DNA from: a virus
IMG/VR virus record: IMGVR_UViG_3300034069_000591
Coordinates: 1-60,561 of that record
Strand: one strand, 5' to 3'
DNA: 60,561 nucleotides
Shown: positions 5,839 to 32,977 of the stretch, in pieces
How positions within the stretch are numbered: position 1 is the stretch's first letter
Layout of the letters: the number at the start of each line of letters is the position of its first letter
Position numbers and translations under genes: made by a program
Notes under the pieces: generated by a model
What the model saw: the letters and a program-made list of their open reading frames with translations, nothing else
Databases searched by the model: none
What the model was told of the DNA's origin: nothing

Positions 5839-5842
5839 GACC

Positions 5843-7112: not shown

Positions 7113-7137
7113 TTCGTGCGCGACGCGCCACGACGCG

Positions 7138-8443: not shown

Positions 8444-8475
8444 GGACGACAGCGCGAGCCGCTACCCAAGCCCCG

Positions 8476-8507: not shown

Positions 8508-8545
8508 CCGCGTCCCCGCCCCTAGCAACGACGGTACGTCCACGG

Positions 8546-8557
8546 TAGACTCGTCCG
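8546..8557 (+). promoter_or_regulatory. leaderless-type promoter (TAGACT)
   Basis: The hexamer ends 7 nt before GTG 8558. Confidence 0.5.
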
Positions 8558-8836
8558 GTGCCCGAGACGCCCCGCGAGCCCCGCCCCGAGCCCGACCTCG
8601 CGTCCCTCCACGAGGCGATCACCGCCCTCGGCCGCGCGCTGTTCGAGGCGATCCGCCCCGTCGCCGAGCAGATCATCCGCGCGCTCGCCGAGCTCGAGCG
8701 CCACATCCGCAAGACCGACGCCGCCCGGCAGGACGCCGACGCCCTCCGCGCCGCCCGGGACTTCACCCGGCTCCCGTCGCTGCCCCCGGCCGACCCCCGC
8801 CTCCGCGGCGCAGCGTTCCGCCACCGCGGACGCTGA
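8558..8836 (+). CDS. hypothetical protein (92 aa)
   Basis: Track ORF. GTG lies 7 nt after TAGACT. Confidence 0.55.
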   Translation: MPETPREPRPEPDLASLHEAITALGRALFEAIRPVAEQIIRALAELERHIRKTDAARQDADALRAARDFTRLPSLPPADPRLRGAAFRHRGR

Positions 8837-8840
8837 CCCC

Positions 8841-9023
8841 GTGACCGTCTACGACATCGCCGCGCTGATCCTCGGCCTCGCGTTCAGCCTCGCCGGCCTC
8901 GTCGTCGTCCTCGCCACCGTGATCCGCCGCCGCGCGACCTGGGAAGGATCCCGAGCCCCGTATTACGTCGCCGCCGCGATCCTCATCCTCGTCGGCGCCT
9001 CGTGGCTCGTCGACCTCCGCTGA
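8841..9023 (+). CDS. membrane protein (60 aa, two TM)
   Basis: Track ORF with two hydrophobic stretches. Confidence 0.55.
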   Translation: MTVYDIAALILGLAFSLAGLVVVLATVIRRRATWEGSRAPYYVAAAILILVGASWLVDLR

Positions 9024-9157
9024 TGCGCCGCGTCCTCATGCGCAACGTCCTCACCGACGAGCGCCGACACCTCGTCATCAGCGACGAGCTCGGCGCCCTG
9101 ATCGACGACGCCCACGAGCCCGTCGCCGTCGGACTGTGGGTCGTCGAGTCCAAGTGA
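9023..9157 (+). CDS. hypothetical protein (44 aa)
   Basis: ATG overlaps the upstream TGA. Open frame checked by hand. Confidence 0.4.
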   Translation: MRRVLMRNVLTDERRHLVISDELGALIDDAHEPVAVGLWVVESK

Positions 9158-9312
9158 GCGACGTCCAGAAGCGTCCCGACGCGTGGCGCTACGTCTGCCC
9201 CCGATGCGGCGAGGTCGGCGAGTACCGCGACCGGAAGTGGTGGGCCGCCGAGGAGCTCGCCGCGCACAACGTCGACCGCCACGGCGGCGCCGCCTACGAT
9301 CCGACCCCATGA
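9154..9312 (+). CDS. hypothetical CxxC protein (52 aa)
   Basis: GTGA overlap. Open frame checked by hand. Contains CPRCG. Confidence 0.4.
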   Translation: MSDVQKRPDAWRYVCPRCGEVGEYRDRKWWAAEELAAHNVDRHGGAAYDPTP

Positions 9313-9935
9313 CCCTCACCCCGACCTCCAACGGCCGGCGCGGCGGACAGACCAAGGTCAGCCTCCCCCGCCTCAAGCGGTTCATCCAGCTCGTCTCCTC
9401 CGGCCTCACCCTCGGCCAATCCGCCAAAGGCATCGGCATCGGCGACCAGACCCGCCGCGACTGGATGCGACGAGGACAACTCGAACTCGTCCGCATCAGC
9501 GACGACGGACACGACCCCTTCGACGACCTCGACACCTCAGAACGAGGCTGGCCCACCGAGCAGACCTGGACCCAGATCCCCCCCGACTTCGACCCCTACG
9601 AGTGGCCGTTCGTCGTGTTCGCCGTCGCCGTCGAAAAAGCGCTCGCCGAGTTCGAGGCCCGCAACGTCGCGATCATCCAGCGCGCGGCGTCCGGGGCGCC
9701 GGCTCAGGACGGGCGGCCGGCGGTCGAGCCGACGTGGACCGCGGCGGCGTGGCTGCTCGAGCGCCGGTTCCCCGAGCTGTACGGCCGCAGCGAGGCGCGG
9801 ATCAAGCAGGCCATGGAGGTCACGCTCCGGCCGGCGGGCACGTCGGGCGATGCGGCGCCGCTGACGGTCGACGACCTCGAGGCGAGCCTCCGCGAGATGG
9901 AAGCGGTCGAGGCGGAGCGGTCGCGGCAGTCGTGA
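9309..9935 (+). CDS. HTH DNA-binding protein, terminase-small-subunit-like
   Basis: The HTH LTLGQSAKGIGIGDQTRRDWMRRG and the C-terminal AAAWLLERRFPELYGR are typical of actinophage TerS proteins. It lies about 12.7 kb from TerL. Confidence 0.5.
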   Translation: MTLTPTSNGRRGGQTKVSLPRLKRFIQLVSSGLTLGQSAKGIGIGDQTRRDWMRRGQLELVRISDDGHDPFDDLDTSERGWPTEQTWTQIPPDFDPYEWPFVVFAVAVEKALAEFEARNVAIIQRAASGAPAQDGRPAVEPTWTAAAWLLERRFPELYGRSEARIKQAMEVTLRPAGTSGDAAPLTVDDLEASLREMEAVEAERSRQS

Positions 9936-10009
9936 CGAGGGCGGAGCGGATCGCGGGCGTCATCGCGGCGGTGCTGGTCGTGGTCGTCTCGATCGTCGTC
10001 GGCCCGTAG
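9932..10009 (+). CDS. tiny membrane peptide (25 aa)
   Basis: GTGA overlap. Translates VTRAERIAGVIAAVLVVVVSIVVGP. Confidence 0.3.
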   Translation: MTRAERIAGVIAAVLVVVVSIVVGP

Positions 10010-10024
10010 CGGACTGGCACTCGC

Positions 10025-10049
10025 GCGTATTACGTAATACGCTCGCGGG
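10025..10049 (+). promoter_or_regulatory. 18-bp perfect palindrome GCGTATTACGTAATACGC overlapping the TACGCT -10 (operator plus promoter)
   Basis: Palindrome at 10025-10042. TACGCT at 10038-10043 lies 7 nt before GTG 10050 of the RHH gene. Confidence 0.6.
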
Positions 10050-10343
10050 GTGGCTGACGACATCGCGAAGGTGCGCTCGATCCGCACCACCGACGCCCTC
10101 TGGGCCGACCTCGGGGAGCGGGCCAAGGTCGCCGGCAAGCCGCGCGGCACGTACGTCGTGGATCAGCTCGAGCGGCCGTCGTTCTCGGCCGCGCTCGAGA
10201 CGGCGGAGACGGTCCTCGACGAGGACGGCCGCGCCGCGGTGCTCGAGCTCGCCGGCGAGGGGCCGCTCGCCGGGTGGACCGCGTCGAGGATGCGGGCGCT
10301 CGCGGCCGGCCTCAACGCCCTCGCGAGCCGGTGGCCCCGCTGA
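10050..10343 (+). CDS. ribbon-helix-helix (Arc/CopG-like) DNA-binding protein
   Basis: VRSIRTTDALWADLGERAKVAGKPRGTYVVDQLE fits a beta-alpha-alpha RHH pattern. The gene sits behind an 18-bp palindrome. Confidence 0.6.
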   Translation: MADDIAKVRSIRTTDALWADLGERAKVAGKPRGTYVVDQLERPSFSAALETAETVLDEDGRAAVLELAGEGPLAGWTASRMRALAAGLNALASRWPR

Positions 10344-10477
10344 TGCAGTGGACCGACGTCTCCGACGACTGCTCGCGGTGCGGGCACGCCCTCGACGCGC
10401 ACGACGCCCCGCCCCTCGGGTGCGGTGTCCACGTCGGCCTCGCCGGCGGCGAGTGCCCGTGCGAGGCGGCCCAGTGA
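10343..10477 (+). CDS. Cys-rich small protein (44 aa)
   Basis: ATG overlaps the upstream TGA. Confidence 0.45.
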   Translation: MQWTDVSDDCSRCGHALDAHDAPPLGCGVHVGLAGGECPCEAAQ

Positions 10478-10845
10478 GCGTCCGCGACGACGAGTTCCGC
10501 GACCCGAACCCTGGCCGCGAGCTCCGCATCGGCGACTCCCTCCGCCGCAACCGCGTGCACCTCGTCACGAGCGCTGACCAGTGCTCGTGCCCGATCGGCG
10601 CCGACCACAGCATCGACGAGCTCCGAGCCGAGTTCCCCGAGCTCGCGGCCGACATGAAGCGCGTCGCCACCGCCGCCGAGGCAGACCGCATCGAGGCGCA
10701 GATCCGCGAGCACGCCCCGCAGTGGGTCGGCGCGACCGTCCTCGGCGACCGCGTCTGGTCCTGCTCGTGCGGGCAGGGCCTCGACCTCAACGCGAAGGAC
10801 TGGCCCGCCCACATGGCCGCGATCCTGACCGGCGGCGCCTCGTGA
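10474..10845 (+). CDS. hypothetical protein (123 aa)
   Basis: GTGA overlap. Confidence 0.6.
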   Translation: MSVRDDEFRDPNPGRELRIGDSLRRNRVHLVTSADQCSCPIGADHSIDELRAEFPELAADMKRVATAAEADRIEAQIREHAPQWVGATVLGDRVWSCSCGQGLDLNAKDWPAHMAAILTGGAS

Positions 10846-22429: not shown

Positions 22430-22672
22430 GTGGCCCAGCCGACCGCTCAGACCGACCTCTCCCCGCAGGAGCGGAGCGTCGCGTCCCTGTTCGCGGTCGA
22501 CGGGCTCCGCGTCGCCGAGGTGGCCGATCGGCTCGGCCTGACCGTCGAGACGACCAAGTCCTACCTCAAGCGGGCCCGGTCCAAGTACCGGGCCCGCGGC
22601 GTCGACGCCTCCACCCAGCACCGCCTCCGCGTCGCCCTCGAGGCCGACCGGGAGACGACCCCGACGTCGTGA
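22430..22672 (+). CDS. LuxR/sigma-70-region-4-type HTH protein (80 aa), a possible small terminase or late regulator
   Basis: LSPQERSVASLFAVDGLRVAEVADRLGLTVETTKSYLKRARSKY is a GerE-type HTH. GTG lies 7 nt after TACCCT. GTGA overlap with TerL. Confidence 0.6.
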   Translation: MAQPTAQTDLSPQERSVASLFAVDGLRVAEVADRLGLTVETTKSYLKRARSKYRARGVDASTQHRLRVALEADRETTPTS

Positions 22673-24351
22673 GCCTCGACGTAGTCGAGCGGGTCCGCAT
22701 CATGGACCCCGTCCGACGCGCGGCCTACTTCCGCAGCCTCGACCAGCGGCAGCGCGCCGCGATCGACGCCGCGATCCGGGAGCGCGTCGCCAACCCCTAC
22801 TTCCGGTTCCGCGACGACCCCGTCGGCTTCATGACCCACCCGCAGGGCCTCGCCGAGACGGCCTGGTCGCGGCAGCTCGACATCATGCGCTCCGTCGCCG
22901 AGCACCCCAAGACCGCGGTCCCCGCGTGCCACGCCCCGGGCAAGTCGCACATCGCCGCCCGCATCATTGCCTGGTGGGGGTCCGTGCACCCCGCCGGCAC
23001 CGCCCGGATCCTCACGACCGCGACGTCGTACCGCCAGGTGAAGAACGTCCTCTGGCCCTACGTCCGCTCGGTCCACGGCATGCACGGGCTCCCCGGCCGC
23101 ATGAACCTCACCGAGTGGCGGATCGGCCCCCGCAACGACATCCTCGCGGAGGGCGTGAAGCCGCCGGACGAGGACGAGCACGCCCTCTCCGGCCTTCACG
23201 CGCCGCACGTCCTCATCGTCGTCGACGAGGCCGGCGGCATCAGCAACGCGTTCGGGCAGTCGCTCATCGGCCTCATGACCGGCTCGCACACCCGGCTCCT
23301 CCTGATCGGCAACCCCCCGGTCGACGAGGAGGGCTCGTGGTTCGAGAAGCAGTGCGAGGACCCGACCTTCAACGTCATCCCGATCCCCGCCTCGGCCACC
23401 CCGAACTGGACCCGCGAGGACGCCGGTATCTGCAAGGCGCACCCCGAAATGGCGCCCCACCCCGTCGCCGAGCACCTCGTCGACAAGACGTGGGCCGAGG
23501 ACCTCGTCCGCTCGTACGGTGAGGGCTCCGCCGTGGTCCTCGCCCGCCGCGACGCGGTGTTCCCGAAGAACAACGAGTCCAAGGTCCTCCCCATGATGTG
23601 GCTCGACGCCGCGTCCGTCGACGACGTCGGGATCCCGGACCAGCGCCGCCGCGAGGGCGTCATCAAGCTCGGCGTCGACATCGCCGCCGGCGGCACGGAC
23701 GAGTTCGTCATCGCGCAGCTCGACGGCAACGTCCTCTCCGTCCTGCACCGCTCGACCGGCGAGCAGAACGCCGAGCCCGGGTTCATCCGCAAGACGATCC
23801 AGGAGCACGCCCGCGTCGCCGCCGGCAAGATGCGCGAGCGCGGCCTCGGCACCGTCCGGGTGAAGGTCGACACCGTCGGCGTCGGGTTCGGCATCTACAT
23901 GTCGCTCCGCGAGCCCGAGCAGGCAATCGCCGGCGTCGAGTACGTCGAGGTGTCCGCCGGCGCGAACGCGCACGACGGCGACCGGTTCCGGATGCAGCGC
24001 GACGAGGGGTGGTGGGCGCTCCGCGAGGCGATCCAGGTCGACGAGCACGGCCGCCGCGAGCTGCTCCTCGACCTCGGCACCGACACCAAGGCCCGCGACA
24101 AGATCCTCGCGCAGCTCAACGCGCCGAAGTACACCATCGACGTCCGGTCCAAGATCCACGTCGAGTCCAAGGACGACATGAGCAAGCGGGGCATCGCGTC
24201 GCCCGACGTCGCGGACGCCCTGTGGATGGCGCCCTACGAGCCGCGACCGGCGCTGATCCTCCCCGCGGTCGGCCCGATCGTCGTCGGCGGCGAGGGCGAC
24301 GCCGACCGCACCGAGGCGTCGGAGCGGCTCGTCGCCGTGTCGTTCGGCTGA
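22669..24351 (+). CDS. terL: terminase large subunit
   Basis: 560 aa. Walker A-like ACHAPGKSH and Walker B-like HVLIVVDEAGG. Positioned upstream of the portal gene. Confidence 0.9.
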   Translation: MSLDVVERVRIMDPVRRAAYFRSLDQRQRAAIDAAIRERVANPYFRFRDDPVGFMTHPQGLAETAWSRQLDIMRSVAEHPKTAVPACHAPGKSHIAARIIAWWGSVHPAGTARILTTATSYRQVKNVLWPYVRSVHGMHGLPGRMNLTEWRIGPRNDILAEGVKPPDEDEHALSGLHAPHVLIVVDEAGGISNAFGQSLIGLMTGSHTRLLLIGNPPVDEEGSWFEKQCEDPTFNVIPIPASATPNWTREDAGICKAHPEMAPHPVAEHLVDKTWAEDLVRSYGEGSAVVLARRDAVFPKNNESKVLPMMWLDAASVDDVGIPDQRRREGVIKLGVDIAAGGTDEFVIAQLDGNVLSVLHRSTGEQNAEPGFIRKTIQEHARVAAGKMRERGLGTVRVKVDTVGVGFGIYMSLREPEQAIAGVEYVEVSAGANAHDGDRFRMQRDEGWWALREAIQVDEHGRRELLLDLGTDTKARDKILAQLNAPKYTIDVRSKIHVESKDDMSKRGIASPDVADALWMAPYEPRPALILPAVGPIVVGGEGDADRTEASERLVAVSFG

Positions 24352-24767
24352 TGCTCCAGACCTACCTCGACGGCCGTCAGCTCGTCACCGTCGAGTGCTC
24401 GGTCCTCGTCCCAGTGCACGTCGCCGGGCTGTGCGACCGATGCGGCGCGCCGCTGACCGGTCGCCGCACCCGCTGGTGCTCGTACTCCTGCGAGGTCGAG
24501 TACCGGCAGAACCACGACTGGTCCCTCGCCCGCAAGGCCGCCCGGAAGCGGGACGGCTACCGGTGCGTGCGGTGCGGCTCCACCGAGCAGCTCGAGTGCA
24601 ACCACATGATCCCGCGCGAGGGCCGCGGCTACGGGTGGGGGTGCCACAACCACCTCGAGCTGCTCGAGACGCTGTGCCACGTCGACCACGTCCTCGTGAC
24701 CCGAGAGCAGGTCGCCGCCCGCGCGCTCGCCGCGGTGCCTCTCCCGCGCCGCCGCCGCCACCTCTGA
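24351..24767 (+). CDS. HNH endonuclease (terminase-associated)
   Basis: CVRCGSTEQLECNHMIPRE...CHNHLELLETLCHVDH. ATG overlaps the TerL stop. Confidence 0.85.
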   Translation: MLQTYLDGRQLVTVECSVLVPVHVAGLCDRCGAPLTGRRTRWCSYSCEVEYRQNHDWSLARKAARKRDGYRCVRCGSTEQLECNHMIPREGRGYGWGCHNHLELLETLCHVDHVLVTREQVAARALAAVPLPRRRRHL

Positions 24768-25396: not shown

Positions 25397-26917
25397 ATGC
25401 CCGACGACGCAGCGCCCGACGGCGAGGTCGAGCAGGCCGAGCCGCAGCCGACCCCGCTCGGGCTCCTCGAGATTGGCTCCGCCGGCCTCAACATCACCGG
25501 CGGGATGGTGCAGGAGGAGTTCCTGCCCGAGCTCCGCGGAGAGCGCGGCCGACGCGTCTACCAGCAGATGTCCGACAACGACCCCGTCGTCGGCGCGTTC
25601 CTGTTCGGCCTCAACCAGCTCATCGGCGGCCTCCCGTGGGCGTGGGAGGCGCCCGACGAGGCCGACGAGCTCGAGCAGGCCGCCGCCGACTTCGTCGCCG
25701 AGTGCTGGGAGGACATGGAGGATCCGTGGGACGCGATCCTCGAGGACGTCATGAGCTTCGCCACGTTCGGGTGGGCGCTGCTCGAGACGGTCTACAAGAT
25801 CCGGCAGGGCCCCGACGCTGAGGACCCCGCCTACCGGTCCCGGTTCGACGACGACCGGATCGGGTGGCGCCGGTTCGCGCCCCGCGGGCAGTCGACGCTC
25901 CTCCGGTGGGAGCGCGACGAGAACGGCCGCGTGCTCGGCATGGTGCAGTCCGACCCCTACGCGCCGCACTCCCGCGAGGTCTACATCCCCCTCGCCAAGG
26001 CGGCCCTGTTCCGCATCAGCCAGGCCAAGAGCAACCCCGAGGGGCGCTCCCTGCTCCGCACCGCCTACCGGCCGTGGCTGTTCAAGACCCGCCTCGAGGA
26101 GTTCGAGGCCATCGGCATCGAGCGCGACCTCGTCGGCTACCCCGTCGTCACGACCCCGGCCGACTGGCACCTCCCCGAGGCGTCGGCCGCGAACCGCGCC
26201 GCGCTGCTCGGCGCCCGCAACCTCGTCAAGAACATGCGCCGCGGGCAGTCCGAGGGCGCCGTCCTGCCGGCGATGTTCGACGACCGCGGCAACAAGCTGT
26301 TCTCCGTCGAGCTCATCACCTCCGGCGGCACCCGGCAGATCGACGTCGGCGCCGTGATCCAGCGCAAGAGCACCGAAATCGCCATGTCCGTGCTCGCCGA
26401 CTTCCTCATGCTCGGCCACGAGAGCACCGGCACCTACTCCCTCGGCGTCGCCAAGGTCGACCTCTGGACCCTCTCGGTCCAGGCCGTCGCCAAGAGCATC
26501 GCCGAGGTGATGAACCGGACCGTCGTCCCGAAGCTGCTCTACCTCAACGGCTTCGCCCCGACCCGCACCCCCAAGCTCGCGTTCGGCGACATCAGCCGCG
26601 TCGACCTCGCCGCGCTCGGCCCCTTCCTCAAGGTCCTCCTCGACGCGCAGGTCATCACCGCCGACACCGACCTCGAGGCGTGGGCCCGCAAGCTGATCGG
26701 CGCGCCCGGCGCTCCCGCCGACCCGCTGTCCGAGGACGCCCTCGACCCCGTCGCGCAGGTCGTCGCCGCCGGCGGCCGGCCGTCCACCGCGGCCGTCTCC
26801 GACGTGCCCGACCGCCCCACCGCCCCGGTGCCGCCCGCGCCGACCGTCGAGACGCCGACGCCCGTCCCGGTCGCCTCCCCCGGGCCCGCGCCGACCGCCC
26901 CGAAGGTGCAGTCCTGA
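25397..26917 (+). CDS. portal protein
   Basis: 506 aa between the terminase and MuF genes. GAGGGAG SD upstream. Call rests on size and position. Confidence 0.78.
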   Translation: MPDDAAPDGEVEQAEPQPTPLGLLEIGSAGLNITGGMVQEEFLPELRGERGRRVYQQMSDNDPVVGAFLFGLNQLIGGLPWAWEAPDEADELEQAAADFVAECWEDMEDPWDAILEDVMSFATFGWALLETVYKIRQGPDAEDPAYRSRFDDDRIGWRRFAPRGQSTLLRWERDENGRVLGMVQSDPYAPHSREVYIPLAKAALFRISQAKSNPEGRSLLRTAYRPWLFKTRLEEFEAIGIERDLVGYPVVTTPADWHLPEASAANRAALLGARNLVKNMRRGQSEGAVLPAMFDDRGNKLFSVELITSGGTRQIDVGAVIQRKSTEIAMSVLADFLMLGHESTGTYSLGVAKVDLWTLSVQAVAKSIAEVMNRTVVPKLLYLNGFAPTRTPKLAFGDISRVDLAALGPFLKVLLDAQVITADTDLEAWARKLIGAPGAPADPLSEDALDPVAQVVAAGGRPSTAAVSDVPDRPTAPVPPAPTVETPTPVPVASPGPAPTAPKVQS

Positions 26918-26918: not shown

Positions 26919-27995
26919 GTGCCGATGATCGTCGCGAAGGCCGCCCGGCCGCGGAAGGCGACGCACGACGTCATCGCCCCCACGTTCGGCGAGCCCTCGA
27001 CCGACGTCTACCGGAACATGGCGTCGATTGGCAACCGCCTCGTCGAGGGCTGGACCGCCCTCGCCGCGCCGCTGACCGGCGACAAGCTCCGCGACGCGAT
27101 CGAGGCCGGCGACGTCGACGCGATCGTCGCGGGCCTCGACTGGGAGGCGTTCACCCTCGCCGCGAACGACACCGTCACCCCCGTCCGCCACACCCTCACG
27201 TCGTTCGCACGCCTCGAGCTGACCCCCGACAGCAAGCGCCGCCCGATCCGCAAGGCCCGATCCGCGACCGTCGAGGTCCCGCTCCCCCCGCCGCTGCTCG
27301 ACGAGGAGACGCCGCTCGACGCGAAGCTCCGCCGGCGCCTGTTCGCCGACGTCGACCAGCGCGCCCTCGACTTCGCGTCCGTGTCCGCCGGCCGCCTCAT
27401 CACCTCCGTGCAGGAGTCCACCAAGCAGGCCGTCCGCGAGCAGGTCGTCGAGGCGCTCAAGGGCGCGATGACCACCGACCAGCTCGCCCGCCGACTCCGC
27501 GCCGTCGTGCCCCTCTCGCCCGTGCAGGCCGGGTCCGTCGCGAAGATCCACGCCGCCGCGATCCGTGACGTCCTCGAGGCCGCCGAGAAGGCCGGCCGCG
27601 CCCCGACCGCGTCCGCCCTCGCCGGCGCCGACAAGATCGCCGAGCGCGCCGCGGCGAAGAAGCTCCGCTACCGGGCGTCCCTGATCGCGCGCACCGAGGT
27701 CGTCGCGGCGAGCAACCAGGGCCGCAACCTCGCGTGGCAGTCGACCGTCGCCGCGGGCGTCTCCGCGAAGAACAGCGTCAAGGAGTGGATCGCCGCCCCC
27801 GACGCGTGCGACGTGTGCGCGGCGATCGACGGCGAGCAGGTCCCCTGGGATCAGCCGTTCTCGACCGGCGACGACATGCCCCCCGATCACCCCGCGTGCC
27901 GCTGCTCCGCCGTGCTGCTCCCGCCCGACATGGCGAACGAGCCCGAGGACCCGATCTACGCGACCGACGACCTCCTCATCGGCGCCGGCGCGTAG
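26919..27995 (+). CDS. MuF/SPP1-gp7-like head morphogenesis protein
   Basis: KEWIAAPDACDVCAAIDGEQVPWDQPF...DHPACRCSAVLLP is typical of the Phage_Mu_F family. Confidence 0.8.
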   Translation: MPMIVAKAARPRKATHDVIAPTFGEPSTDVYRNMASIGNRLVEGWTALAAPLTGDKLRDAIEAGDVDAIVAGLDWEAFTLAANDTVTPVRHTLTSFARLELTPDSKRRPIRKARSATVEVPLPPPLLDEETPLDAKLRRRLFADVDQRALDFASVSAGRLITSVQESTKQAVREQVVEALKGAMTTDQLARRLRAVVPLSPVQAGSVAKIHAAAIRDVLEAAEKAGRAPTASALAGADKIAERAAAKKLRYRASLIARTEVVAASNQGRNLAWQSTVAAGVSAKNSVKEWIAAPDACDVCAAIDGEQVPWDQPFSTGDDMPPDHPACRCSAVLLPPDMANEPEDPIYATDDLLIGAGA

Positions 27996-28035
27996 CCTCC
28001 GCGCGTCGCGCGTGGACGGCCGTACTCCCGCGCGC

Positions 28036-28047
28036 CACAATGCACGC
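28036..28047 (+). promoter_or_regulatory. leaderless-type promoter (CACAAT, weak)
   Basis: Ends 7 nt before ATG 28048. The upstream CGTACTCCC resembles the sequence at 59399. Confidence 0.35.
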
Positions 28048-29232
28048 ATGACGCAGATCCGGCAGACCGTCGACCTCGACACCGCCCGCGACCTCGCGGA
28101 GCGCGGCCTCATCGGCGACGGCTTCGAGAAGTCCCTCGCCGAGCTCGGCGCCATGAACTACGCGCAGGTCGACGTCGTGATCGACTACGGCCCGAACGGG
28201 ACCAGCACCGTCGGGATCGCTCCCGTCAACGGCATCATGGTCGGATTCTTCCTCCCCTCGTGGGTCGGCGAGCAGGTCGCGCTCCCCGGCGGCGAGCAGG
28301 TCAACGGCCTGCACATCACGCTCGCCTACCTCGGCGAGCTCGACGCGCTGAACGTGAACCAGCAGCGCACCCTCATCGGCGTGTGCGCCGAGCTCGCCCG
28401 CGACTCGCACGCGCTCCGCGGCGTCCTCCGCGGCATCAACACCTTCCCCGCCGAGGAGGGCGGCGACGGCGCCGGCTACACCTCGGACTCGATCCCGCTC
28501 TACGCCGGCGTCGACGTGCCCGGCCTGTTCGAGCTCCGCGGCGCGCTGCTCCGCGCGCTCGACGACGCCAAGATCCCGTACGACAAGACGCACCCGAACT
28601 ACGTCCCCCACGTCACCCTCGCCTACGTCGACCCCGAGGCCGCCGACGAGGACGCCCTCACCGCGTTCCAGCTCGAGCCCGTCGACGTCACGCTCCGCGA
28701 ACTCACCGTCGCGATCGGCGGCGCGCACTTCACCTCGACGCTGTTCGGCGAGGTGTGGGACGACTACGGCGTCGCGCCCGAGTACCAGCGCACCGGCCCG
28801 TCCGCGTACCGGCCGACGATCGCCGTCGCCAAGGCCCTCACCCTCGAGGAGGAGCGCCGCTTCACCCTCGCCCCGATGTACCTCCCCGACACCCTCGACG
28901 GGCACGGCGAGTGGGTCGACGGCCTCGACCTCGAGCAGTCGTTCCACGACTTCATGGCCGACTTCGCCCACGAGGGGATCCGCCTCCAGCACGAGCCGGC
29001 CGTCGTCGCCGGCAAGGTCGTCGAGGGCTACATCCTTCGCGAGCCGCTCGAGGTCGAGGTCCCCGTCCCCGGGAACGAGACGGTCATGGAGAAGCACCTC
29101 TACCCCGCGGGCACGCCGATGATCGGCACCCGGTGGGAGCCGTGGGCCTGGCCCCTCGTGAAGGACGGCACGATCCGCGGCTACTCGATGGGCGGCACCG
29201 CGACGCCCGTCGACGAGTCCATCGGTGCCTGA
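28048..29232 (+). CDS. 2H phosphoesterase (LigT-like) fused to an XkdF-like putative prohead protease domain
   Basis: Two HxTx motifs: LH89ITLAYLGE (28312) and PH188VTLAY (28609). The C-terminal half (RFTLAPMYLPDTLDGHGEWV...FHDFM...GYSMGG) resembles the XkdF/S78_2 family. Confidence 0.65.
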   Translation: MTQIRQTVDLDTARDLAERGLIGDGFEKSLAELGAMNYAQVDVVIDYGPNGTSTVGIAPVNGIMVGFFLPSWVGEQVALPGGEQVNGLHITLAYLGELDALNVNQQRTLIGVCAELARDSHALRGVLRGINTFPAEEGGDGAGYTSDSIPLYAGVDVPGLFELRGALLRALDDAKIPYDKTHPNYVPHVTLAYVDPEAADEDALTAFQLEPVDVTLRELTVAIGGAHFTSTLFGEVWDDYGVAPEYQRTGPSAYRPTIAVAKALTLEEERRFTLAPMYLPDTLDGHGEWVDGLDLEQSFHDFMADFAHEGIRLQHEPAVVAGKVVEGYILREPLEVEVPVPGNETVMEKHLYPAGTPMIGTRWEPWAWPLVKDGTIRGYSMGGTATPVDESIGA

Positions 29233-29422
29233 GACGGCCCAGCGCGCGCCCGGCTACGTCTCGCCGTACACCCGCCCGCGCTGCCCCGCGCTCTACACCG
29301 GCGTGATGCACCCGACGATGCTCCGATGCGACCGCATCGAGCACCCGAAGGACCGCCGCCACGAGGCCGTCCTCCCGCCGCTCGAGGGCCGCGAGGAACC
29401 CCGTACCGTCTCGTGGGTCTGA
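29225..29422 (+). CDS. hypothetical protein (65 aa)
   Basis: Track ORF. Third codon positions are almost all G/C (checked by hand). Confidence 0.45.
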   Translation: MPETAQRAPGYVSPYTRPRCPALYTGVMHPTMLRCDRIEHPKDRRHEAVLPPLEGREEPRTVSWV

Positions 29423-29543
29423 GGCCCTACGATCAGCACCGCTGGGGCGCGGCGGAATGGGTAGCCGACGCGTGACGCCCGAGCGGGCGGGCACCTTGGG
29501 CGGTGCTGGGGCGCTCGTCTCGGGCTCCCGGCCTCTCGCGTAT

Positions 29544-29556
29544 TACGCTGCTCCGG
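29544..29556 (+). promoter_or_regulatory. leaderless-type promoter (GCGTATTACGCT)
   Basis: TACGCT ends 8 nt before GTG 29557. Confidence 0.5.
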
Positions 29557-29877
29557 GTGAACACCACCCTCAGCAACGTCGCCGAGAGGCTCGCCCGCCT
29601 CGCCGAGCTCGTCGACGCACTCCCGCAGGACGTCGTCGGATGGGTCCAGACCATCGGCGACCATCAGGCCGCAGTCCACGTCGACCGCGACGGCGACTCC
29701 CCGATCGACCCCGACGAGGCGTTCGACCGCGTCGTCCGCGCGTTCCACGACCTGCACGTCGGCGGTGACGAGCACCGCGACGGCGATCCGGGCTACACGC
29801 CGGGGTTCCGGACGTGGGTCGCGGGCGCGTCCGTGCACGGCTGGTCCCTGTCCGTGGTCGTACGCTCCCGCGCATGA
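29557..29877 (+). CDS. hypothetical protein (106 aa)
   Basis: GTG lies 8 nt after TACGCT. Internal start within track ORF 29503..29877. Confidence 0.5.
   Translation: MNTTLSNVAERLARLAELVDALPQDVVGWVQTIGDHQAAVHVDRDGDSPIDPDEAFDRVVRAFHDLHVGGDEHRDGDPGYTPGFRTWVAGASVHGWSLSVVVRSRA
29861..29873 (+). promoter_or_regulatory. internal leaderless-type promoter (TACGCTCCCG)
   Basis: Ends 8 nt before ATG 29874. Confidence 0.35.
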
Positions 29878-30122
29878 TGGATTCAGCAGAGGCCCGCCGC
29901 AAGCTCGAGTGGGCCGAGACGGTCGCCGAGGGCGGCACGGTCCGAGACACGGTCCGCGTGCAGGCGCTCGTCGAGGTCGGCGAGCAGATCCGCGCCTCCA
30001 ACCTCATCGCCCTCGCCGCGCGCGCGGAGGACCAGGAGCGCGACGAGCTGCTCGACGAGGCCCGCGCGATCGTCCTCGGGACGACCCCCGTCCCCGACAC
30101 CGAGCCGCCCGCCTCGGAGTAG
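29874..30122 (+). CDS. hypothetical helical protein (82 aa)
   Basis: ATGA overlap. ATG lies 8 nt after TACGCT. Confidence 0.5.
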   Translation: MMDSAEARRKLEWAETVAEGGTVRDTVRVQALVEVGEQIRASNLIALAARAEDQERDELLDEARAIVLGTTPVPDTEPPASE

Positions 30123-30130
30123 CGCGACGG

Positions 30131-30155
30131 CCCCCGGCTGACCGCTCGCCGGGGG
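30131..30155 (+). terminator. 8-bp hairpin CCCCCGGC/GCCGGGGG
   Basis: 9 nt after the stop at 30122 and before the TACCCT promoter. Confidence 0.45.
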
Positions 30156-30178
30156 TCGCCGTCGCGCGGCGCGCACCG

Positions 30179-30190
30179 TACCCTCGCCCC
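30179..30190 (+). promoter_or_regulatory. leaderless-type promoter (GTACCCTCGCCCC)
   Basis: Ends 7 nt before GTG 30191. Same 13-mer as at 46467. Confidence 0.5.
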
Positions 30191-30568
30191 GTGCGCGCCT
30201 CCTGGATCCTCGTCGGCGTGTCCGCGTTCGTCGGCGCCGCGATCGCCGGCCTCCCGCCCGTCCGCGATGGGTTCGATCACGCCTACGAGCGCGCCCGCGC
30301 GGCGCAGCGTCGCCCCCGCTGGCCCGACGTCGTGCGCGGCGTCCGATGGTTCGAGGACGACCGCCGCCTCGCCGCCCGCCTCGACCCCGCCGGCGTCGAG
30401 CGCGTCGTCCGCGCCCGCGTGCTGAGCCTCCGCCCGCGCGAGAAGCGCGTCTACTCCGAGGCCGCCCGCCGAGACGCCCGCCGAGCGCTCCGCCGGCCGC
30501 CCGCCACCGTGACCCCCGGCCCGTGGCCACACACCGGACCGATCGAGCTCCCCATCCCGCGCCACTGA
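30191..30568 (+). CDS. membrane-anchored Arg-rich protein (125 aa)
   Basis: GTG lies 7 nt after TACCCT. N-terminal TM WILVGVSAFVGAAIAGL. Confidence 0.5.
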   Translation: MRASWILVGVSAFVGAAIAGLPPVRDGFDHAYERARAAQRRPRWPDVVRGVRWFEDDRRLAARLDPAGVERVVRARVLSLRPREKRVYSEAARRDARRALRRPPATVTPGPWPHTGPIELPIPRH

Positions 30569-30647: not shown

Positions 30648-31604
30648 ATGCCGGAGAGCGTGACCAAGCAGCGCAAGCTCGTCGCGCCGCGCATCACCGA
30701 GGTTTCCGGCGTCGACCGACCGGCGCACCTCCGCGACGGTTTCTTCATTCGCAAGAGCGTCGGCACCGAGGGCGCGGACGCGCTGCTCGCCGCGCTCGGA
30801 CGAGGAGCATCCATGCCGAAGACCGTCGAGGCGGCCACCGCGGCGACCCTGCTCAAGTCCCTGACCCCCGAGCAGCGCACCACGCTCGGCGGCGAGGACG
30901 GCGCAGCGGCGCTCGCGAAGGCCCTCACGCCCGAACAGACGACCGAGTTCACCAAGGCGGCCGGCGGCGACCTCGCCCCGATCCTGGACCAGCTCGCGAC
31001 CGTCTGGCAGGCCGTCCGGGACCTCTCCGAGAAGGAGGATCCCGACGTCCCCAGCACCGAGGGCGCGATCGACCCGACGACCGGGCAGCCCGCCGTGCAG
31101 CCGGCCGCGCCGGACGCCGCCGCGGTGCTCGCGTCCCCGGCCCTCGCGAAGGCGCTCGGCGACGACGCCGTCGCGATGCTCAAGAGCCTCGCCGAGCGGG
31201 CGTCCGCCGCCGAGGCGCGAGAGGCGGAGACGATGCAGAAGGCGCTCGACGCGACCGCGGTCACCGAGTTCGAGAAGGCGTACGGCGGGATCGGCGTCGA
31301 CGCCGGCGTCGTCGCTCCGGCGCTCCGCCAGTTCGCGGAGTCGTCCCCCGAGGCCGCGGACGCGATCCGCACCGGCCTCGCGAAGGCGGTCGAGACGACC
31401 AGGGCCAACCGGGCGATCATCGTCAAGGAGCTCGGCACCGTCGCCGCCCCCATGCCCGACTCGCCCTCCGGCCGGGTCGAGAGCATGGCCAAGAGCCTCG
31501 TCGAGTCCGGCGAGCAGAAGACCATCGAGCAGGCGAGGGCGGCCGTGTACTCGGCGCACCCGGACCTCTACGACGCGGCGCGCAACGGCGCCGGGGAGGA
31601 GTAG
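30648..31604 (+). CDS. capsid scaffolding protein
   Basis: 318 aa, Ala/Glu-rich and helical. N-terminal ITEVSGVDRPAHLRDGFFIRK. GGGAGG SD upstream. Lies immediately upstream of the decoration and capsid genes. Confidence 0.6.
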   Translation: MPESVTKQRKLVAPRITEVSGVDRPAHLRDGFFIRKSVGTEGADALLAALGRGASMPKTVEAATAATLLKSLTPEQRTTLGGEDGAAALAKALTPEQTTEFTKAAGGDLAPILDQLATVWQAVRDLSEKEDPDVPSTEGAIDPTTGQPAVQPAAPDAAAVLASPALAKALGDDAVAMLKSLAERASAAEAREAETMQKALDATAVTEFEKAYGGIGVDAGVVAPALRQFAESSPEAADAIRTGLAKAVETTRANRAIIVKELGTVAAPMPDSPSGRVESMAKSLVESGEQKTIEQARAAVYSAHPDLYDAARNGAGEE

Positions 31605-31607: not shown

Positions 31608-31985
31608 ATGGCTTTCGAGTGGGGTCCCCGGCACGCCGAGACCTACCCGGCGGGCGCCGACCTGACCGACAAGCAGTACTTCGTGGGCGTGCGCCAGGCC
31701 GACGGGACGATCGTCCTCGCCGGCGCGGGCCTCGGCGACGGCATCATCGAGTACACGGTCCCGCCGAAGGTGGGCGCCTCGATCGCGCTCGTCGACGACG
31801 GCACGAACAAGGTCCGGCTCGGCGGCACCGTCGCGATCGGCGACCAGCTCATCGCGGGGGCCGACGGCCGCGCGATCAAGCGCGTCGCCCAGACCGGCAA
31901 GGTGTTCGGCGTCGCCCGCGAGGCGGGCGTCGCGGGGCAGATCATCGCGGCGCGCGTCGACTTCGCCGGCGCCCAGAGCTACTGA
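31608..31985 (+). CDS. head decoration protein (DUF2190-like)
   Basis: 125 aa Gly/Ala-rich beta protein between the scaffold and the MCP. GGAGGAG SD upstream. Confidence 0.55.
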   Translation: MAFEWGPRHAETYPAGADLTDKQYFVGVRQADGTIVLAGAGLGDGIIEYTVPPKVGASIALVDDGTNKVRLGGTVAIGDQLIAGADGRAIKRVAQTGKVFGVAREAGVAGQIIAARVDFAGAQSY

Positions 31986-32002: not shown

Positions 32003-32977
32003 ATGCCTCAGCCCAACAACAGGGTCTTCATCGACCAGCCGCTCACCAACCTCTCGGTGGCGTTCGACCAGCAGGACACGCAGTTCATCGCCGACCGGAT
32101 CTTCCCGGTCGTGCCGGTGGACCAGATCAGCGGGCTCTACTGGTCCTACCCCAAGGAGGACTGGCTCCGCGACGAGGCCCAGCGCCGCACGGGCGGGTTC
32201 GAGTCGGCCGGGTCCGGCTTCGGCGTCCAGACGGACACCTACTCGTGCAACGTGTGGGCGTTCCACAAGGACATCGACGACATCACCGCCGCGCAGGCGT
32301 CCTCGGCGCTCGACCTCGACTCCGCCGCCGCGCGGTTCGTCGTCTCCCGCCTCCGCCTCCGCAAGGAGCGGCAGGTCATGTCCGACTTCTTCAAGACGGG
32401 CGTGTGGGGCACCGACTTCACCGGCGTCACCTCGGCGCCGGGCGCGAACCAGTTCGTGCAGTGGTCGAACACCGCGAGCTCGCACCCGATCACGGACATC
32501 AAGGCCGCCGCGCGCCAGATCCTGTCCGTCACCGGGTTCCTGCCGAACACGCTCGTGCTCGGGTACGACGCGTACCTCGCGCTGACGACCCACCCGGACA
32601 TCCTCGACCGGATCAAGTACACCGACTCCGGCGCGATCACCGAGGCGATCATCGCCCGGTACTTCGACGTCGACCGGGTGCTCGTCTCCACGTCGATCGT
32701 GAACACCGCGGCCGAGGGCCTGACCCCCTCGTACGGGTTCAACCTCGGCAAGTCCGCGCTGCTCTGCTACTCGGCCCCCAACCCGGGCCTGATGACGCCG
32801 AGCGCCGGCTACACGTTCTCGTGGACGGGCGTGTCCTACGGCCTCGGCGCGACGATCGGCACGAAGCGCTTCCGCATGGAGGAGCTCGCGGCCGACCGCG
32901 TCGAGTCGCAGATCGCGTTCAGCAACAAGATCGTCGCGCCCGAGCTCGGCGTCTACTTCCAGAACGTGGTCGCCTGA
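32003..32977 (+). CDS. major capsid protein (lambda gpE-like family)
   Basis: 324 aa. The N-terminal FIADRIFPVVPV..YWSYPKEDWLRDEA pattern is typical of Phage_cap_E. Strong SD AAGGGGGAG and a strong hairpin after the stop. Confidence 0.85.
   Translation: MPQPNNRVFIDQPLTNLSVAFDQQDTQFIADRIFPVVPVDQISGLYWSYPKEDWLRDEAQRRTGGFESAGSGFGVQTDTYSCNVWAFHKDIDDITAAQASSALDLDSAAARFVVSRLRLRKERQVMSDFFKTGVWGTDFTGVTSAPGANQFVQWSNTASSHPITDIKAAARQILSVTGFLPNTLVLGYDAYLALTTHPDILDRIKYTDSGAITEAIIARYFDVDRVLVSTSIVNTAAEGLTPSYGFNLGKSALLCYSAPNPGLMTPSAGYTFSWTGVSYGLGATIGTKRFRMEELAADRVESQIAFSNKIVAPELGVYFQNVVA

What the first reader, a model, noticed from the sequence alone, without database searches (positions are those of the whole stretch)
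28048..29232. 2H phosphoesterase (LigT-like) domain fused to the XkdF-like putative prohead protease inside the head-assembly module
Seen directly: the N-terminal 230 aa or so contain the two HxTx motifs of the 2H superfamily in LigT-like context, GLH89ITLAYLGE and VPH188VTLAYV. The C-terminal 140 aa or so (RFTLAPMYLPDTLDGHGEWVDGLDLEQSFHDFM ... WPLVKDGTIRGYSMGG) resemble the XkdF/S78_2 family.

The gene sits between the MuF gene and the scaffold/capsid genes. No other capsid protease (HK97, ClpP or U9/U35 type) is visible.

Established knowledge: 2H enzymes hydrolyse 2',3'-cyclic or 2'-5' phosphodiester bonds. Viral 2H enzymes degrade host immune nucleotide signals; examples are the anti-OAS phosphodiesterases and the phage anti-CBASS Acb1 fold.

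Inference: fusion to a head-assembly domain could package a phosphodiesterase into the capsid, so it would be delivered together with the DNA as an early anti-defence activity. A role in RNA repair or in assembly is equally possible.
Basis: partly seen in the sequence, partly recalled or inferred. Interest (0 to 1): 0.62.

Follow-up and report, generated by a model that had tools for sequence, protein, structure and literature searches.

The report
Phosphoesterase fused to phage head protease
One gene of a complete 60-kb actinobacteriophage genome joins an apparently active RNA/nucleotide-cutting (2H) enzyme to the phage's only head-maturation protease, a common and previously predicted but untested design that probably loads the enzyme into the capsid.

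Summary
Gene 28048-29232 (+) encodes 394 aa. It has a small N-terminal subdomain (1-58), a LigT-type 2H phosphoesterase (about 60-240, H89xT91 and H188xT190), a disordered linker (245-261) and an XkdF/Peptidase_S78_2 domain (262-386). Both Pfam hits exceed their curated cut-offs. AlphaFold plus Foldseek give a 2H fold (E. coli LigT, E 1e-7).

The window is a complete viral genome, and XkdF is the only one of six prohead-protease families tested that hits. No RNA ligase or RtcB was found.

The fusion is not new as an object. It matches PHROG 14859 over its full length and occurs in 15 phage records (Arthrobacter phages and one Microbacterium phage), annotated 'RNA ligase', 'aldolase' or 'capsid maturation protease'. 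It is also present in 123 of the 150 best 50%-identity cluster representatives. This scan has noted the same design before on other DNA.

Comparative evidence favours packaged cargo. The same 2H clade is fused to three different prohead-protease families (XkdF, HK97-S78, Mu gpI) and to MuF. Catalytic residues of both halves are conserved. In Gordonia phage GMA2 a homologous 2H domain was detected in purified virions by mass spectrometry.

Substrate and biological role remain untested. Iyer et al. (2017) already predicted head-packaged 2H effectors. Verdict: a well-supported new member of a known, uncharacterised kind.

The parts
28048..29232 (+). Whole gene, 394 aa plus stop: 2H phosphoesterase - XkdF fusion. 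An alternative GTG start lies at 28012.
   Evidence: ORF list and translation. Full-length match to PHROG 14859, E 1.8e-75. Homologue N-termini favour the ATG at 28048.
28048..28221 (+). N-terminal alpha/beta subdomain (aa 1-58) of unknown role. It is conserved in the family and travels with the 2H domain.
   Evidence: AF2 secondary structure E3-9, H10-18, H26-35, E40-47, E53-58, pLDDT 80-87. Present in 7 of 9 related viral loci and in the stand-alone 2H protein GMA6 orf12.
28225..28767 (+). LigT-type 2H phosphoesterase domain (aa ~60-240).
   Evidence: PF13563 and PF02834 above cut-off. AF2 pLDDT is mostly 84-96, lower (68-70) in the 131-150 loop. Foldseek: LigT 5ldm E 1.1e-7, D. radiodurans CPDase 5h7e, T. 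thermophilus 1iuh, rotavirus VP3 PDE 4ye2.
28312..28320 (+). First catalytic motif H89-I-T91.
   Evidence: Invariant in 37/37 family members. H in 121/125 and T/S in 120/125 diverse representatives.
28609..28617 (+). Second catalytic motif H188-V-T190.
   Evidence: Invariant in 37/37. H in 122/125 and T/S in 122/125.
28780..28830 (+). Disordered, poorly conserved interdomain linker (aa 245-261). Candidate site of proteolytic separation (inferred).
   Evidence: AF2 pLDDT below 50 for 245-261. Variable, gap-rich alignment columns.
28831..29205 (+). XkdF / Peptidase_S78_2 domain (aa 262-386), the putative prohead serine protease.
   Evidence: PF14550 48.4 bits. Six-frame genome search hit at 28843-29205, 51.3 bits, the only hit. 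Domain-only AF2 model pLDDT 85.8.
28897..28899 (+). D284, candidate catalytic Asp.
   Evidence: Invariant in alignment A1, in distant Bacillus, Lactococcus and haloarchaeal XkdF proteins, and in 150/150 aligned sequences.
28990..28992 (+). H315, candidate catalytic His.
   Evidence: Invariant. It was not part of the retrieval patterns.
29185..29187 (+). S380 in G-Y-S-M-G-G, candidate nucleophile.
   Evidence: Invariant. 149/150; the one exception is a truncated protein.
22669..24351 (+). Large terminase subunit (context).
   Evidence: phrog_2, E 1.5e-27.
25397..26917 (+). Mu-type portal protein (context).
   Evidence: PF06074 E 7.2e-33; phrog_113 E 2.1e-73.
26919..27995 (+). MuF-like minor head protein (context).
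   Evidence: PF04233 E 2e-12.
30648..31604 (+). Probable scaffold protein, a likely protease substrate (inferred from position).
   Evidence: phrog_13547, unknown function, E 1.3e-23. Position directly upstream of the capsid genes.
31608..31985 (+). Small head protein (scaffold or decoration-like).
   Evidence: phrog_673 E 1.4e-16. The gene at the same position in phage Kovu is annotated 'head fiber protein'.
32003..32977 (+). Major capsid protein, with no evident N-terminal propeptide.
   Evidence: phrog_1005 E 1.4e-89, aa 7-324 aligned to profile positions 9-315 of 315.

Best explanation
The gene encodes a two-enzyme head-assembly protein.

Shown: a LigT-type 2H phosphoesterase with an intact HxT/HxT active site is joined by a flexible linker to an XkdF-family domain. 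That domain keeps a conserved Asp284-His315-Ser380 set. It is the only prohead-protease-family hit in this complete genome, and the gene sits in the canonical protease slot.

Inferred: the XkdF half is co-assembled into the procapsid with scaffold and capsid protein through its free C-terminal end, as other prohead proteases are. It thereby carries the 2H half inside. During maturation the protease degrades the scaffold and probably cuts the linker. The folded 2H module of about 27 kDa would then be trapped in the head and leave with the DNA at the next infection, as T4 Alt and the internal proteins do.

In the new host the enzyme would act before any phage gene is expressed. It could act on 2',3'-cyclic-phosphate or 2'-5' RNA ends, or on cyclic or 2'-5' oligonucleotide immune signals. 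That would be a pre-loaded counter-defence enzyme.

My odds: domain identities about 0.95; entry into the procapsid about 0.7; retention of the 2H domain in the virion and its ejection about 0.45; a counter-defence role about 0.4-0.5.
For: Domain identity:
- Pfam hits for both halves exceed their cut-offs.
- The AF2 model has mean pLDDT 82.4, with two folded domains and a disordered linker.
- Foldseek matches the 2H half to LigT and CPDase structures at E 1e-7 to 1e-6, prob 1.0.

Active sites under selection:
- H89, T91, H188 and T190 are invariant in 37/37 members that share only 26-76% identity with the window protein.
- 116 of 124 two-domain proteins (123 representatives plus the window's) keep both H-x-[ST] motifs, and 123 of 124 keep D/H/S.
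- D284, H315 and S380 are also invariant in XkdF proteins of Bacillus, Lactococcus and haloarchaeal viruses at 28-32% identity.

Protease slot:
- XkdF is the only hit among six prohead-protease families in a 100%-complete genome with terminal repeats.
- The gene order terminase - portal - MuF - fusion - ... - scaffold - capsid recurs in phages Kovu and ValentiniPuff and in metagenomic relatives.
- In distant viruses the XkdF protein lies directly between the portal/MuF genes and the capsid gene.

Localisation logic:
- With the 2H half alone as query, 20 of 22 non-self hits carry a prohead protease in the same chain: 13 XkdF, 2 HK97-S78, 5 Mu gpI. Others carry MuF or ADP-ribosyltransferase.
- The XkdF end is C-terminal in 80 of 100 two-domain representatives and in 80 of 80 viral loci.
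- Extra cargo domains (uracil-DNA glycosylase, zeta-toxin kinase, methyltransferase plus DNA ligase) precede the module in larger relatives.

Direct virion evidence in a relative:
- Gordonia phage GMA2 orf10 lies next to the portal gene and is a full-length PHROG 2659 member. Its C-terminal domain is homologous to this 2H domain (hhalign prob 97.6, E 2.6e-12).
- It was one of only three GMA2 proteins detected in purified virions. One peptide (aa 825-846) spans its second HxT motif (PMC4524720 Table S5).

Precedent:
- T4 Alt and the internal proteins are targeted to the prohead, trimmed by gp21 and ejected. The C-terminal propeptide of the SPN3US protease targets it to the prohead (PMC7411985).
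- Iyer et al. 2017 proposed head-packaged 2H effectors, and noted assemblin-like peptidases at the C-termini of polyvalent proteins (PMC5512222).

No RNA ligase (Rnl1, Rnl2) or RtcB was found in the genome.
Against: - No experiment shows that any XkdF protein is a protease or that a 2H-XkdF protein is in a virion. The searchable literature holds none.
- The GMA2 protein has a different architecture, with no XkdF domain.
- Prohead proteases usually digest themselves and leave the head, so retention of the 2H part is an assumption.
- The XkdF fold has no significant match in the PDB. The T4 gp21 resemblance (TM 0.49, E 0.22) is only suggestive.
- The capsid protein shows no propeptide, so the need for a protease here rests on scaffold removal.
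- The closest structures are RNA-end-processing LigT/CPDase enzymes, not known anti-signal enzymes. Acb1 is not matched.
- A stand-alone copy of the same 2H unit exists in phage GMA6, so fusion is not obligatory.
Confidence: 0.55

Rival explanations
1. Cytoplasmic RNA-repair or RNA-processing enzyme that is merely co-expressed with head genes. The 2H half heals 2',3'-cyclic-phosphate RNA ends made by host anticodon nucleases or other RNA-cleaving defences late in infection. Fusion to the protease only secures timing and amount, and the enzyme is not delivered by the virion.
For: - The best fold matches are LigT and bacterial or archaeal cyclic phosphodiesterases.
- 10 of 37 family members also hit the RNA-repair '2H-SAK' Pfam model.
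- In Streptosporangium oxazolinicum the HK97-S78-type 2H fusion lies about 5 kb from a polynucleotide kinase-phosphatase, RlaP and T4-type RNA ligase 1 cluster.
- A stand-alone copy exists in phage GMA6.
Against: - This complete genome has no Rnl1, Rnl2 or RtcB hit (the Rnl1 search had no positive control).
- Co-expression needs only operon adjacency, yet the 2H clade is covalently joined to four different head-interior proteins.
- GMA2 virions contain the homologous 2H domain.
- Iyer et al. 2017 reported that these 2H versions do not associate with RNA ligases.
Confidence: 0.2
2. The XkdF domain is not a protease but a scaffold- or capsid-binding assembly domain. The whole protein would be a minor internal head protein, incorporated uncleaved, and head maturation would need no proteolysis.
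For: - No biochemical evidence for XkdF proteolysis was found.
- There is no significant structural match to any solved protease.
- The capsid protein has no evident propeptide.
Against: - Asp, His and Ser are invariant from haloarchaeal to actinobacterial viruses, and the Ser sits in a G-x-S-x-G-G context.
- The gene occupies the protease or protease-scaffold slot in many virus lineages.
- The only PDB hit with a sensible TM-score is the T4 prohead protease.
- No other protease hit in the genome could remove the scaffold.
Confidence: 0.12
3. The 2H domain has a structural or regulatory role in assembly, for example as a pro-domain that holds the protease inactive or as an internal core component. 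Phosphoesterase chemistry would be irrelevant.
For: - Its position N-terminal to a protease resembles a pro-domain arrangement.
- A few family members have lost HxT residues (8 of 124, several of them truncated).
Against: - Four of the eight invariant residues in the 2H half are exactly the catalytic H, T, H, T.
- 94% of diverse two-domain proteins keep both motifs.
- The same 2H clade is attached to unrelated partners in different orders, which does not fit a partner-specific regulatory domain.
Confidence: 0.08

Closest known systems
PHROG 14859 proteins of cultured actinophages: Arthrobacter phages Kovu gp20, Laroye/Salgado/LiSara/Wheelbite gp18, Ottawa/Kharcho gp87, and Microbacterium phage ValentiniPuff gp7
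   Same: Same full-length architecture (N-subdomain - 2H - linker - XkdF), 33-42% identity over 82-96% of the protein. Same slot after portal and MuF.
   Different: Different hosts and lower GC. They are uncharacterised and inconsistently annotated ('RNA ligase', 'aldolase class I', 'capsid maturation protease'). Klyczek et al. 2017 treated Laroye gene 18 as a non-structural 'adolase' (aldolase) insertion (PMC5513430).
Head-packaged 'polyvalent' effector proteins with 2H domains fused to MuF or portal (Iyer, Burroughs, Anand, de Souza, Aravind 2017, PMC5512222). Example: Gordonia phage GMA2 orf10
   Same: A 2H domain of the same clade covalently attached to a head-interior protein encoded next to the portal gene. 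Predicted delivery with the DNA, acting as an RNase or as a degrader of 2'-5' or cyclic nucleotide signals. GMA2 orf10 was detected in virions.
   Different: Here the carrier is the XkdF-type protease, not MuF or portal. The passages of the 2017 paper that I read name MuF/portal fusions for 2H and 'assemblin-like' peptidases at C-termini, but not a 2H-XkdF pair.
E. coli LigT/ThpR and Deinococcus radiodurans 2',3'-cyclic phosphodiesterase (PDB 5ldm, 4qak, 5h7e)
   Same: Best structural matches: the 2H fold with two HxT motifs.
   Different: Only 17-19% identity. It scores 27.8 bits against the TIGR02258 equivalog model, whose cut-off is 65.7. It has an extra 58-aa N-terminal subdomain, is fused to a protease and is encoded in a phage head module.
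Phage T4 Alt and internal proteins IPI-III with the gp21 prohead protease
   Same: The proposed mechanism matches: an enzyme is targeted into the prohead, processed by the prohead protease, kept in the head and ejected with the DNA (PMC7411985).
   Different: T4 uses a short N-terminal capsid-targeting peptide on separate proteins. Here the cargo is fused to the protease itself, and the protease families differ.
Acb1 anti-CBASS nuclease (T4 gene 57B; Erwinia phage FBB1, 2H fold; PMC9117128)
   Same: A phage-encoded enzyme with a 2H fold, which shows that phage 2H enzymes can destroy cyclic oligonucleotide signals.
   Different: The Pfam Acb1 model does not hit this protein and hits only 2 of 37 relatives, weakly. 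No Acb1 structure appears among the listed top 50 PDB fold hits. Acb1 is a small stand-alone protein.
Canonical XkdF proteins: PBSX-like Bacillus phage PBP180 ORF10, Lactococcus phage 28201 gp33, haloviruses HSTV-1 gp13 and HHTV-2 gp38
   Same: The same XkdF domain with conserved D, H and S, encoded immediately upstream of the major capsid gene.
   Different: There the XkdF domain is N-terminal and followed by a long, probably scaffold-like tail. Here it is C-terminal, preceded by an enzyme, and the scaffold is a separate gene.

Membership tests
2H phosphoesterase superfamily (LigT-like) | Two H-x-[ST]-x motifs | tested here: met
   H89-I-T91-L and H188-V-T190-L. Invariant in 37/37 relatives.
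2H phosphoesterase superfamily (LigT-like) | Profile match above the curated threshold | tested here: met
   PF13563 43.3 bits against a cut-off of 27; PF02834 28.1 against 23.3.
2H phosphoesterase superfamily (LigT-like) | 2H fold | tested here: met
   AF2 model. Foldseek: LigT 5ldm E 1.1e-7, prob 1.0, target TM 0.61-0.64. Thirty PDB chains at E <= 1e-3 and seven more up to 1e-2, all 2H-type structures.
2H phosphoesterase superfamily (LigT-like) | Phosphodiesterase activity | not testable with these tools
   Needs enzyme assays.
ThpR/LigT orthologue (NCBIfam TIGR02258 equivalog) | Score above the equivalog cut-off | tested here: not met
   27.8 bits against a cut-off of 65.7. It is a superfamily member, not an orthologue of cellular LigT.
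Acb1 anti-CBASS nuclease (PF23474) | Profile match, or Acb1 as closest structure | tested here: not met
   No hit for this protein at E <= 0.01. Only 2 of 37 relatives hit, with a best E-value of 5.3e-4. No Acb1 entry is among the 50 PDB matches listed.
XkdF / Peptidase_S78_2 (PF14550) | Profile match above the curated threshold | tested here: met
   48.4 bits against a cut-off of 24. 51.3 bits in the six-frame genome search.
XkdF / Peptidase_S78_2 (PF14550) | Conserved candidate catalytic residues | tested here: met
   D284, H315 and S380 are invariant in near and distant XkdF proteins. H286 is not universal: it is Lys in haloviruses.
XkdF / Peptidase_S78_2 (PF14550) | Encoded in the prohead-protease slot of a head module | tested here: met
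XkdF / Peptidase_S78_2 (PF14550) | Proteolytic activity on head proteins | not testable with these tools
   No experimental report was found in the searchable library.
Assemblin / HK97 / T4 gp21-like (SH) prohead protease fold | Structural similarity to solved prohead proteases | tested here: inconclusive
   With the domain-only model, no PDB hit reaches E <= 1e-3. T4 gp21 (5jbl_B) is the only hit with a sensible TM-score (0.49, prob 0.84) but has E 0.22. Iyer et al. 2021 call XkdF unrelated to the SH superfamily.
PHROG 14859 | Full-length profile match | tested here: met
   E 1.8e-75, aa 29-386 aligned to profile positions 25-360 of 373.
Head-packaged effector fusions ('polyvalent proteins', Iyer et al. 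2017) | Effector enzyme domain fused to a head-interior protein, encoded beside the portal and terminase genes | tested here: met
   Architecture and context. The paper describes 2H-MuF/portal fusions and C-terminal assemblin-like peptidases.
Head-packaged effector fusions ('polyvalent proteins', Iyer et al. 2017) | Physical presence in the virion and delivery into the host | not testable with these tools
   The only evidence is indirect: the homologous 2H domain of GMA2 orf10 was seen in virion mass spectrometry.

The most novel reading that the evidence does not exclude
Prohead proteases of at least three different families (XkdF, HK97-S78, Mu gpI) serve as general loading vehicles. They would place tens of copies of an active 2H phosphodiesterase inside each capsid. 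The enzyme would be freed by cleavage at the linker and ejected with the DNA. It would then destroy cyclic-oligonucleotide or 2'-5'-linked immune signals, or cut or heal host RNAs, before any phage gene is expressed. That would be a pre-loaded counter-defence widespread in actinophages.
Probability: 0.3. Interest if true: 0.7.

Novelty: new member of a known kind. Interest (0 to 1): 0.42.

Why it matters
If the 2H enzyme is really carried in the capsid, it would show that phages can meet nucleotide-signalling or RNA-targeting defences with an enzyme already present at the moment of DNA entry. All characterised signal-degrading anti-defence enzymes, such as Acb1, are described only as expressed proteins.

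The family is large. 123 of the 150 best 50%-identity cluster representatives carry both domains. It occurs in cultured, harmless actinophage-host pairs, so the 2017 prediction is directly testable.

The work also corrects annotation. These genes are labelled 'RNA ligase', 'aldolase' or 'hypothetical', while the neighbouring MuF gene is sometimes labelled as the protease. It further proposes an Asp-His-Ser triad for the uncharacterised XkdF family.

Tried and rejected
- A sequence search of the PDB with the whole protein gave only spurious low-complexity matches to a flagellin-hook protein and superoxide dismutase.
- The Acb1 reading was rejected: no profile hit and no Acb1 structure among the fold hits.
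- Orthology with cellular LigT/ThpR was rejected: the score is below the TIGR02258 cut-off.
- H286 as the catalytic His was downgraded because haloviral XkdF proteins have Lys there. H315 is universal.
- I considered the nearly invariant K262-A263 as a cleavage site and dropped the idea. The same T-K-[AS] motif belongs to the XkdF domain even where that domain is N-terminal.
- Conservation in the 80 viral loci is partly circular for D284/H286/S380, because the retrieval patterns contained those motifs. I therefore relied.
- A pattern scan of one genome per prokaryotic species found no prophage copies. The first attempt failed for lack of a conserved stretch. This suggests, but does not show, a lytic lineage.
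- GMA6 orf12, a stand-alone 2H protein, was not among the virion proteins detected. That analysis saw only three GMA6 proteins, so it is uninformative.
- Literature searches for experimental work on XkdF proteolysis or on virion proteomics of 2H-XkdF phages found nothing.
Full report
**What is there.** The window is a complete virus record of 60,561 bp with direct terminal repeats. CheckV estimates it as 100% complete. GC content is 70-75% and nearly all genes lie on the + strand. An open frame runs 28012-29232. No clear ribosome-binding site precedes either start.

**Domain identity.**
- Pfam gives 2_5_RNA_ligase2 over aa 88-221 (E 4.9e-11, 43.3 bits, cut-off 27).
- Pfam gives LigT_PEase at 28.1 bits (cut-off 23.3).
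- Pfam gives Peptidase_S78_2/XkdF over aa 266-386 (E 1.2e-12, 48.4 bits, cut-off 24).
- An AlphaFold2 model built on 37 homologues has mean pLDDT 82.4. It shows a small alpha/beta subdomain (1-58), a 2H domain (about 60-240), a disordered linker (245-261, pLDDT below 50) and a compact C-terminal domain.
- Foldseek against the PDB matches the N-terminal half to E. coli LigT (5ldm, E 1.1e-7), D. radiodurans cyclic phosphodiesterase (5h7e) and T. thermophilus TT0787 (1iuh).
- More distant matches are rotavirus VP3 phosphodiesterase, AKAP18, Usb1, the penguinpox cGAMP phosphodiesterase and MHV ns2.
- The protein is a superfamily member, not an orthologue of cellular LigT: it scores 27.8 bits against the TIGR02258 cut-off of 65.7.
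- It is not Acb1-like by profile or by top fold hits.

**The XkdF half.**
- Modelled alone (pLDDT 85.8), it has no significant match in the PDB.
- The only hit with a sensible TM-score is the T4 prohead protease gp21 (5jbl_B, TM 0.49, prob 0.84, E 0.22). I treat this as a hint only.
- Iyer et al. 2021 regard XkdF as a serine peptidase unrelated to the assemblin-like superfamily and as the likely prohead protease of some jumbo phages.
- D284, H315 and S380 (in G-Y-S-M-G-G) are invariant in the family alignment.
- They are also invariant in XkdF proteins of Bacillus, Lactococcus and haloarchaeal viruses at 28-32% identity, and in 149-150 of 150 aligned sequences.
- H286 is Lys in the haloviruses, so Asp284-His315-Ser380 is the best candidate triad.
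- In those distant viruses the XkdF protein lies directly between the portal/MuF genes and the major capsid gene, with XkdF at its N-terminus and a long tail behind it. That is the classic protease-scaffold arrangement.

**Context in the window.**
- The gene order is large terminase (22669-24351), Mu-type portal (25397-26917), MuF (26919-27995), the fusion, about 1.4 kb of small genes, a scaffold-like gene (30648-31604), a small head protein (31608-31985) and the major capsid protein (32003-32977).
- Six-frame searches of the whole genome with Peptidase_S78, S49, ClpP, S77 and Mu-like_Pro found nothing. XkdF hit once. The S77 search had no positive control.
- RNA ligase families Rnl2 and Rnl1, and RtcB, are also absent (the Rnl1 search had no positive control).

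**How common it is.**
- The protein matches PHROG 14859 ('RNA ligase') over its full length, E 1.8e-75.
- tblastn finds full-length relatives (33-42% identity) in 15 phage records: Arthrobacter phages and Microbacterium phage ValentiniPuff (some phages appear as both GenBank and RefSeq records). They sit in the same slot and are annotated variously as 'RNA ligase', 'aldolase class I', 'capsid maturation protease' or hypothetical.
- Klyczek et al. 2017 listed Laroye gene 18 as an 'adolase' (aldolase) among non-structural insertions.
- A profile search of 1.84 billion cluster representatives gave 20,868 hits at E <= 1e-3 and 1,560 at E <= 1e-30.
- Of the best 150, 100 are spanned across both domains by a single match. 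In 80 of those the module ends within 40 residues of the C-terminus.
- By separate half-profiles, 123 of the 150 carry both domains.
- Among the 124 two-domain proteins (those 123 plus the window's), 116 keep both H-x-[ST] motifs and 123 keep D/H/S.
- This scan has recorded the same class of fusion several times on other DNA.

**Why I favour 'cargo loaded into the head'.**
- With the 2H half alone as query, 20 of 22 non-self hits carry a prohead protease in the same polypeptide: 13 XkdF, 2 HK97-type S78 and 5 Mu gpI type. One more carries an ADP-ribosyltransferase.
- A 2H-MuF-ADP-ribosyltransferase protein also exists.
- The Mu-gpI-type and S78-type fusions sit in the protease position of their own head modules.
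- These partners belong to different families. What they share is residence inside the procapsid.
- Larger relatives put further enzymes in front of the 2H-XkdF module: uracil-DNA glycosylase, a zeta-toxin-type kinase, and a methyltransferase plus DNA ligase.
- In 80 of 80 related viral loci XkdF is the C-terminal end of its reading frame, behind variable N-terminal regions.
- This pattern matches the 'polyvalent protein' logic of Iyer et al. 2017. They described 2H domains fused to MuF or portal and assemblin-like peptidases always at C-termini. They proposed that such 2H domains act as RNases or degrade 2'-5' or cyclic nucleotide signals.
- Known precedent for the route is T4 Alt and the internal proteins, which are targeted to the prohead, trimmed by gp21 and ejected. 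C-terminal propeptides target prohead proteases into the prohead.

**A piece of direct evidence from the literature.**
- Dyson et al. 2015 analysed purified Gordonia phage virions by mass spectrometry.
- For phage GMA2 only three proteins were detected: orf9, orf10 and orf16 (Table S5).
- orf9 is the portal and orf16 the major head protein. orf10 (883 aa, next to the portal gene) is a full-length member of PHROG 2659, the family that this window's 2H domain also hits.
- The C-terminal 183 aa of orf10 align to this family's 2H domain with hhalign probability 97.6, E 2.6e-12. The alignment includes both HxT motifs.
- One of the 18 detected peptides, aa 825-846 (SEVGDYDAYTPHITAVTGQQAR), spans the second motif.
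- A 2H domain of this clade, attached to a head protein, is therefore physically present in mature virions. The architecture differs (no XkdF), so this supports the principle, not this protein specifically.

**What remains open.**
- No experiment shows XkdF proteolysis, incorporation of a 2H-XkdF protein, cleavage at the linker, or any substrate.
- Prohead proteases often self-digest and leave the head, so retention of the 2H part is an assumption.
- The capsid protein here has no evident propeptide, so the protease would mainly remove scaffold.
- The RNA-repair alternative keeps some weight. The closest structures are RNA-end-processing enzymes. Ten of 37 relatives hit the RNA-repair 2H-SAK model. 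The Streptosporangium S78-type fusion lies near a kinase-phosphatase/RlaP/Rnl1 cluster.
- A stand-alone copy of the N-subdomain-plus-2H unit in phage GMA6, between a portal-MuF fusion and an ADP-ribosyltransferase gene, shows that fusion is not obligatory.

**Verdict.** The gene is a new member of a large, already catalogued but uncharacterised and mis-annotated family. Its general logic was predicted in 2017. Its value is as a clean, testable example: there are cultured relatives in harmless hosts, and both active sites are intact. One is a candidate Asp-His-Ser triad for XkdF. The other is published virion proteomics showing that a homologous 2H domain is packaged in phage GMA2.

Noticed in passing
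window 24351-24767 (+): The C-terminal part of the frame that ends at 24767 carries CxxC...HNH-type motifs (…CDRCGAPL…CVRCGS…ECNHMIPRE…CHVDH). This looks like an HNH endonuclease gene between the terminase and portal genes, a common partner of terminases.
   Followed up: no
window 29225-30568: About 1.4 kb of small genes separates the fusion gene from the scaffold gene. Relatives also have runs of small genes, or nuclease genes in phage Kovu, at this position, so the interruption is a lineage trait.
   Followed up: partly
L086 (Streptosporangium oxazolinicum GCA_039537505.1, contig BAABAQ010000020) 8001-9764 and 15235-17764: An HK97-S78 protease - 2H fusion lies upstream of an HK97-type capsid gene. 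About 5 kb away on the other strand is a polynucleotide kinase-phosphatase, RlaP and T4-type RNA ligase 1 cluster. This is a possible link of such 2H fusions to RNA repair in that element.
   Followed up: no
L005 (Gordonia phage GMA2, KR063281) 7981-10632: orf10, labelled 'putative structural protein', ends in a 2H domain that Pfam barely detects (only a weak Acb1 hit, E 7.9e-4). It was found in virions by mass spectrometry. Its central region (…FSRGSS…YGGFSGMSG…EREAILP…) looks like an ADP-ribosyltransferase, but no profile confirmed this.
   Followed up: partly
L004 (Gordonia phage GMA6, KR063280) 5324-9977: orf11 is a portal-MuF fusion, orf12 a stand-alone N-subdomain-plus-2H protein, and orf13 an ADP-ribosyltransferase. 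The same effector set occurs as separate genes in the head module.
   Followed up: partly
P0110, P0086, P0040, P0038 (metagenomic proteins): Larger proteins extend the 2H-XkdF module. Examples: methyltransferase + ATP-dependent DNA ligase + 2H + XkdF (1870 aa); zeta-toxin-type kinase + 2H + XkdF; 2H + uracil-DNA glycosylase + XkdF; 2H + XkdF + ferritin-like domain.
   Followed up: partly
L001 (Arthrobacter phage Kovu, PQ184785) genes 18 and 20: Annotation appears to be swapped. Gene 18, labelled 'capsid maturation protease', sits in the MuF position; the window's MuF protein likewise matches a PHROG labelled 'head maturation protease' (phrog_16493). The XkdF-bearing gene 20 is labelled 'RNA ligase'.
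   Followed up: partly
window 32003-32977: The major capsid protein aligns end to end with its PHROG profile and has no N-terminal propeptide. If the XkdF domain is a protease, its main substrates must be the scaffold, itself or minor head proteins.
   Followed up: no
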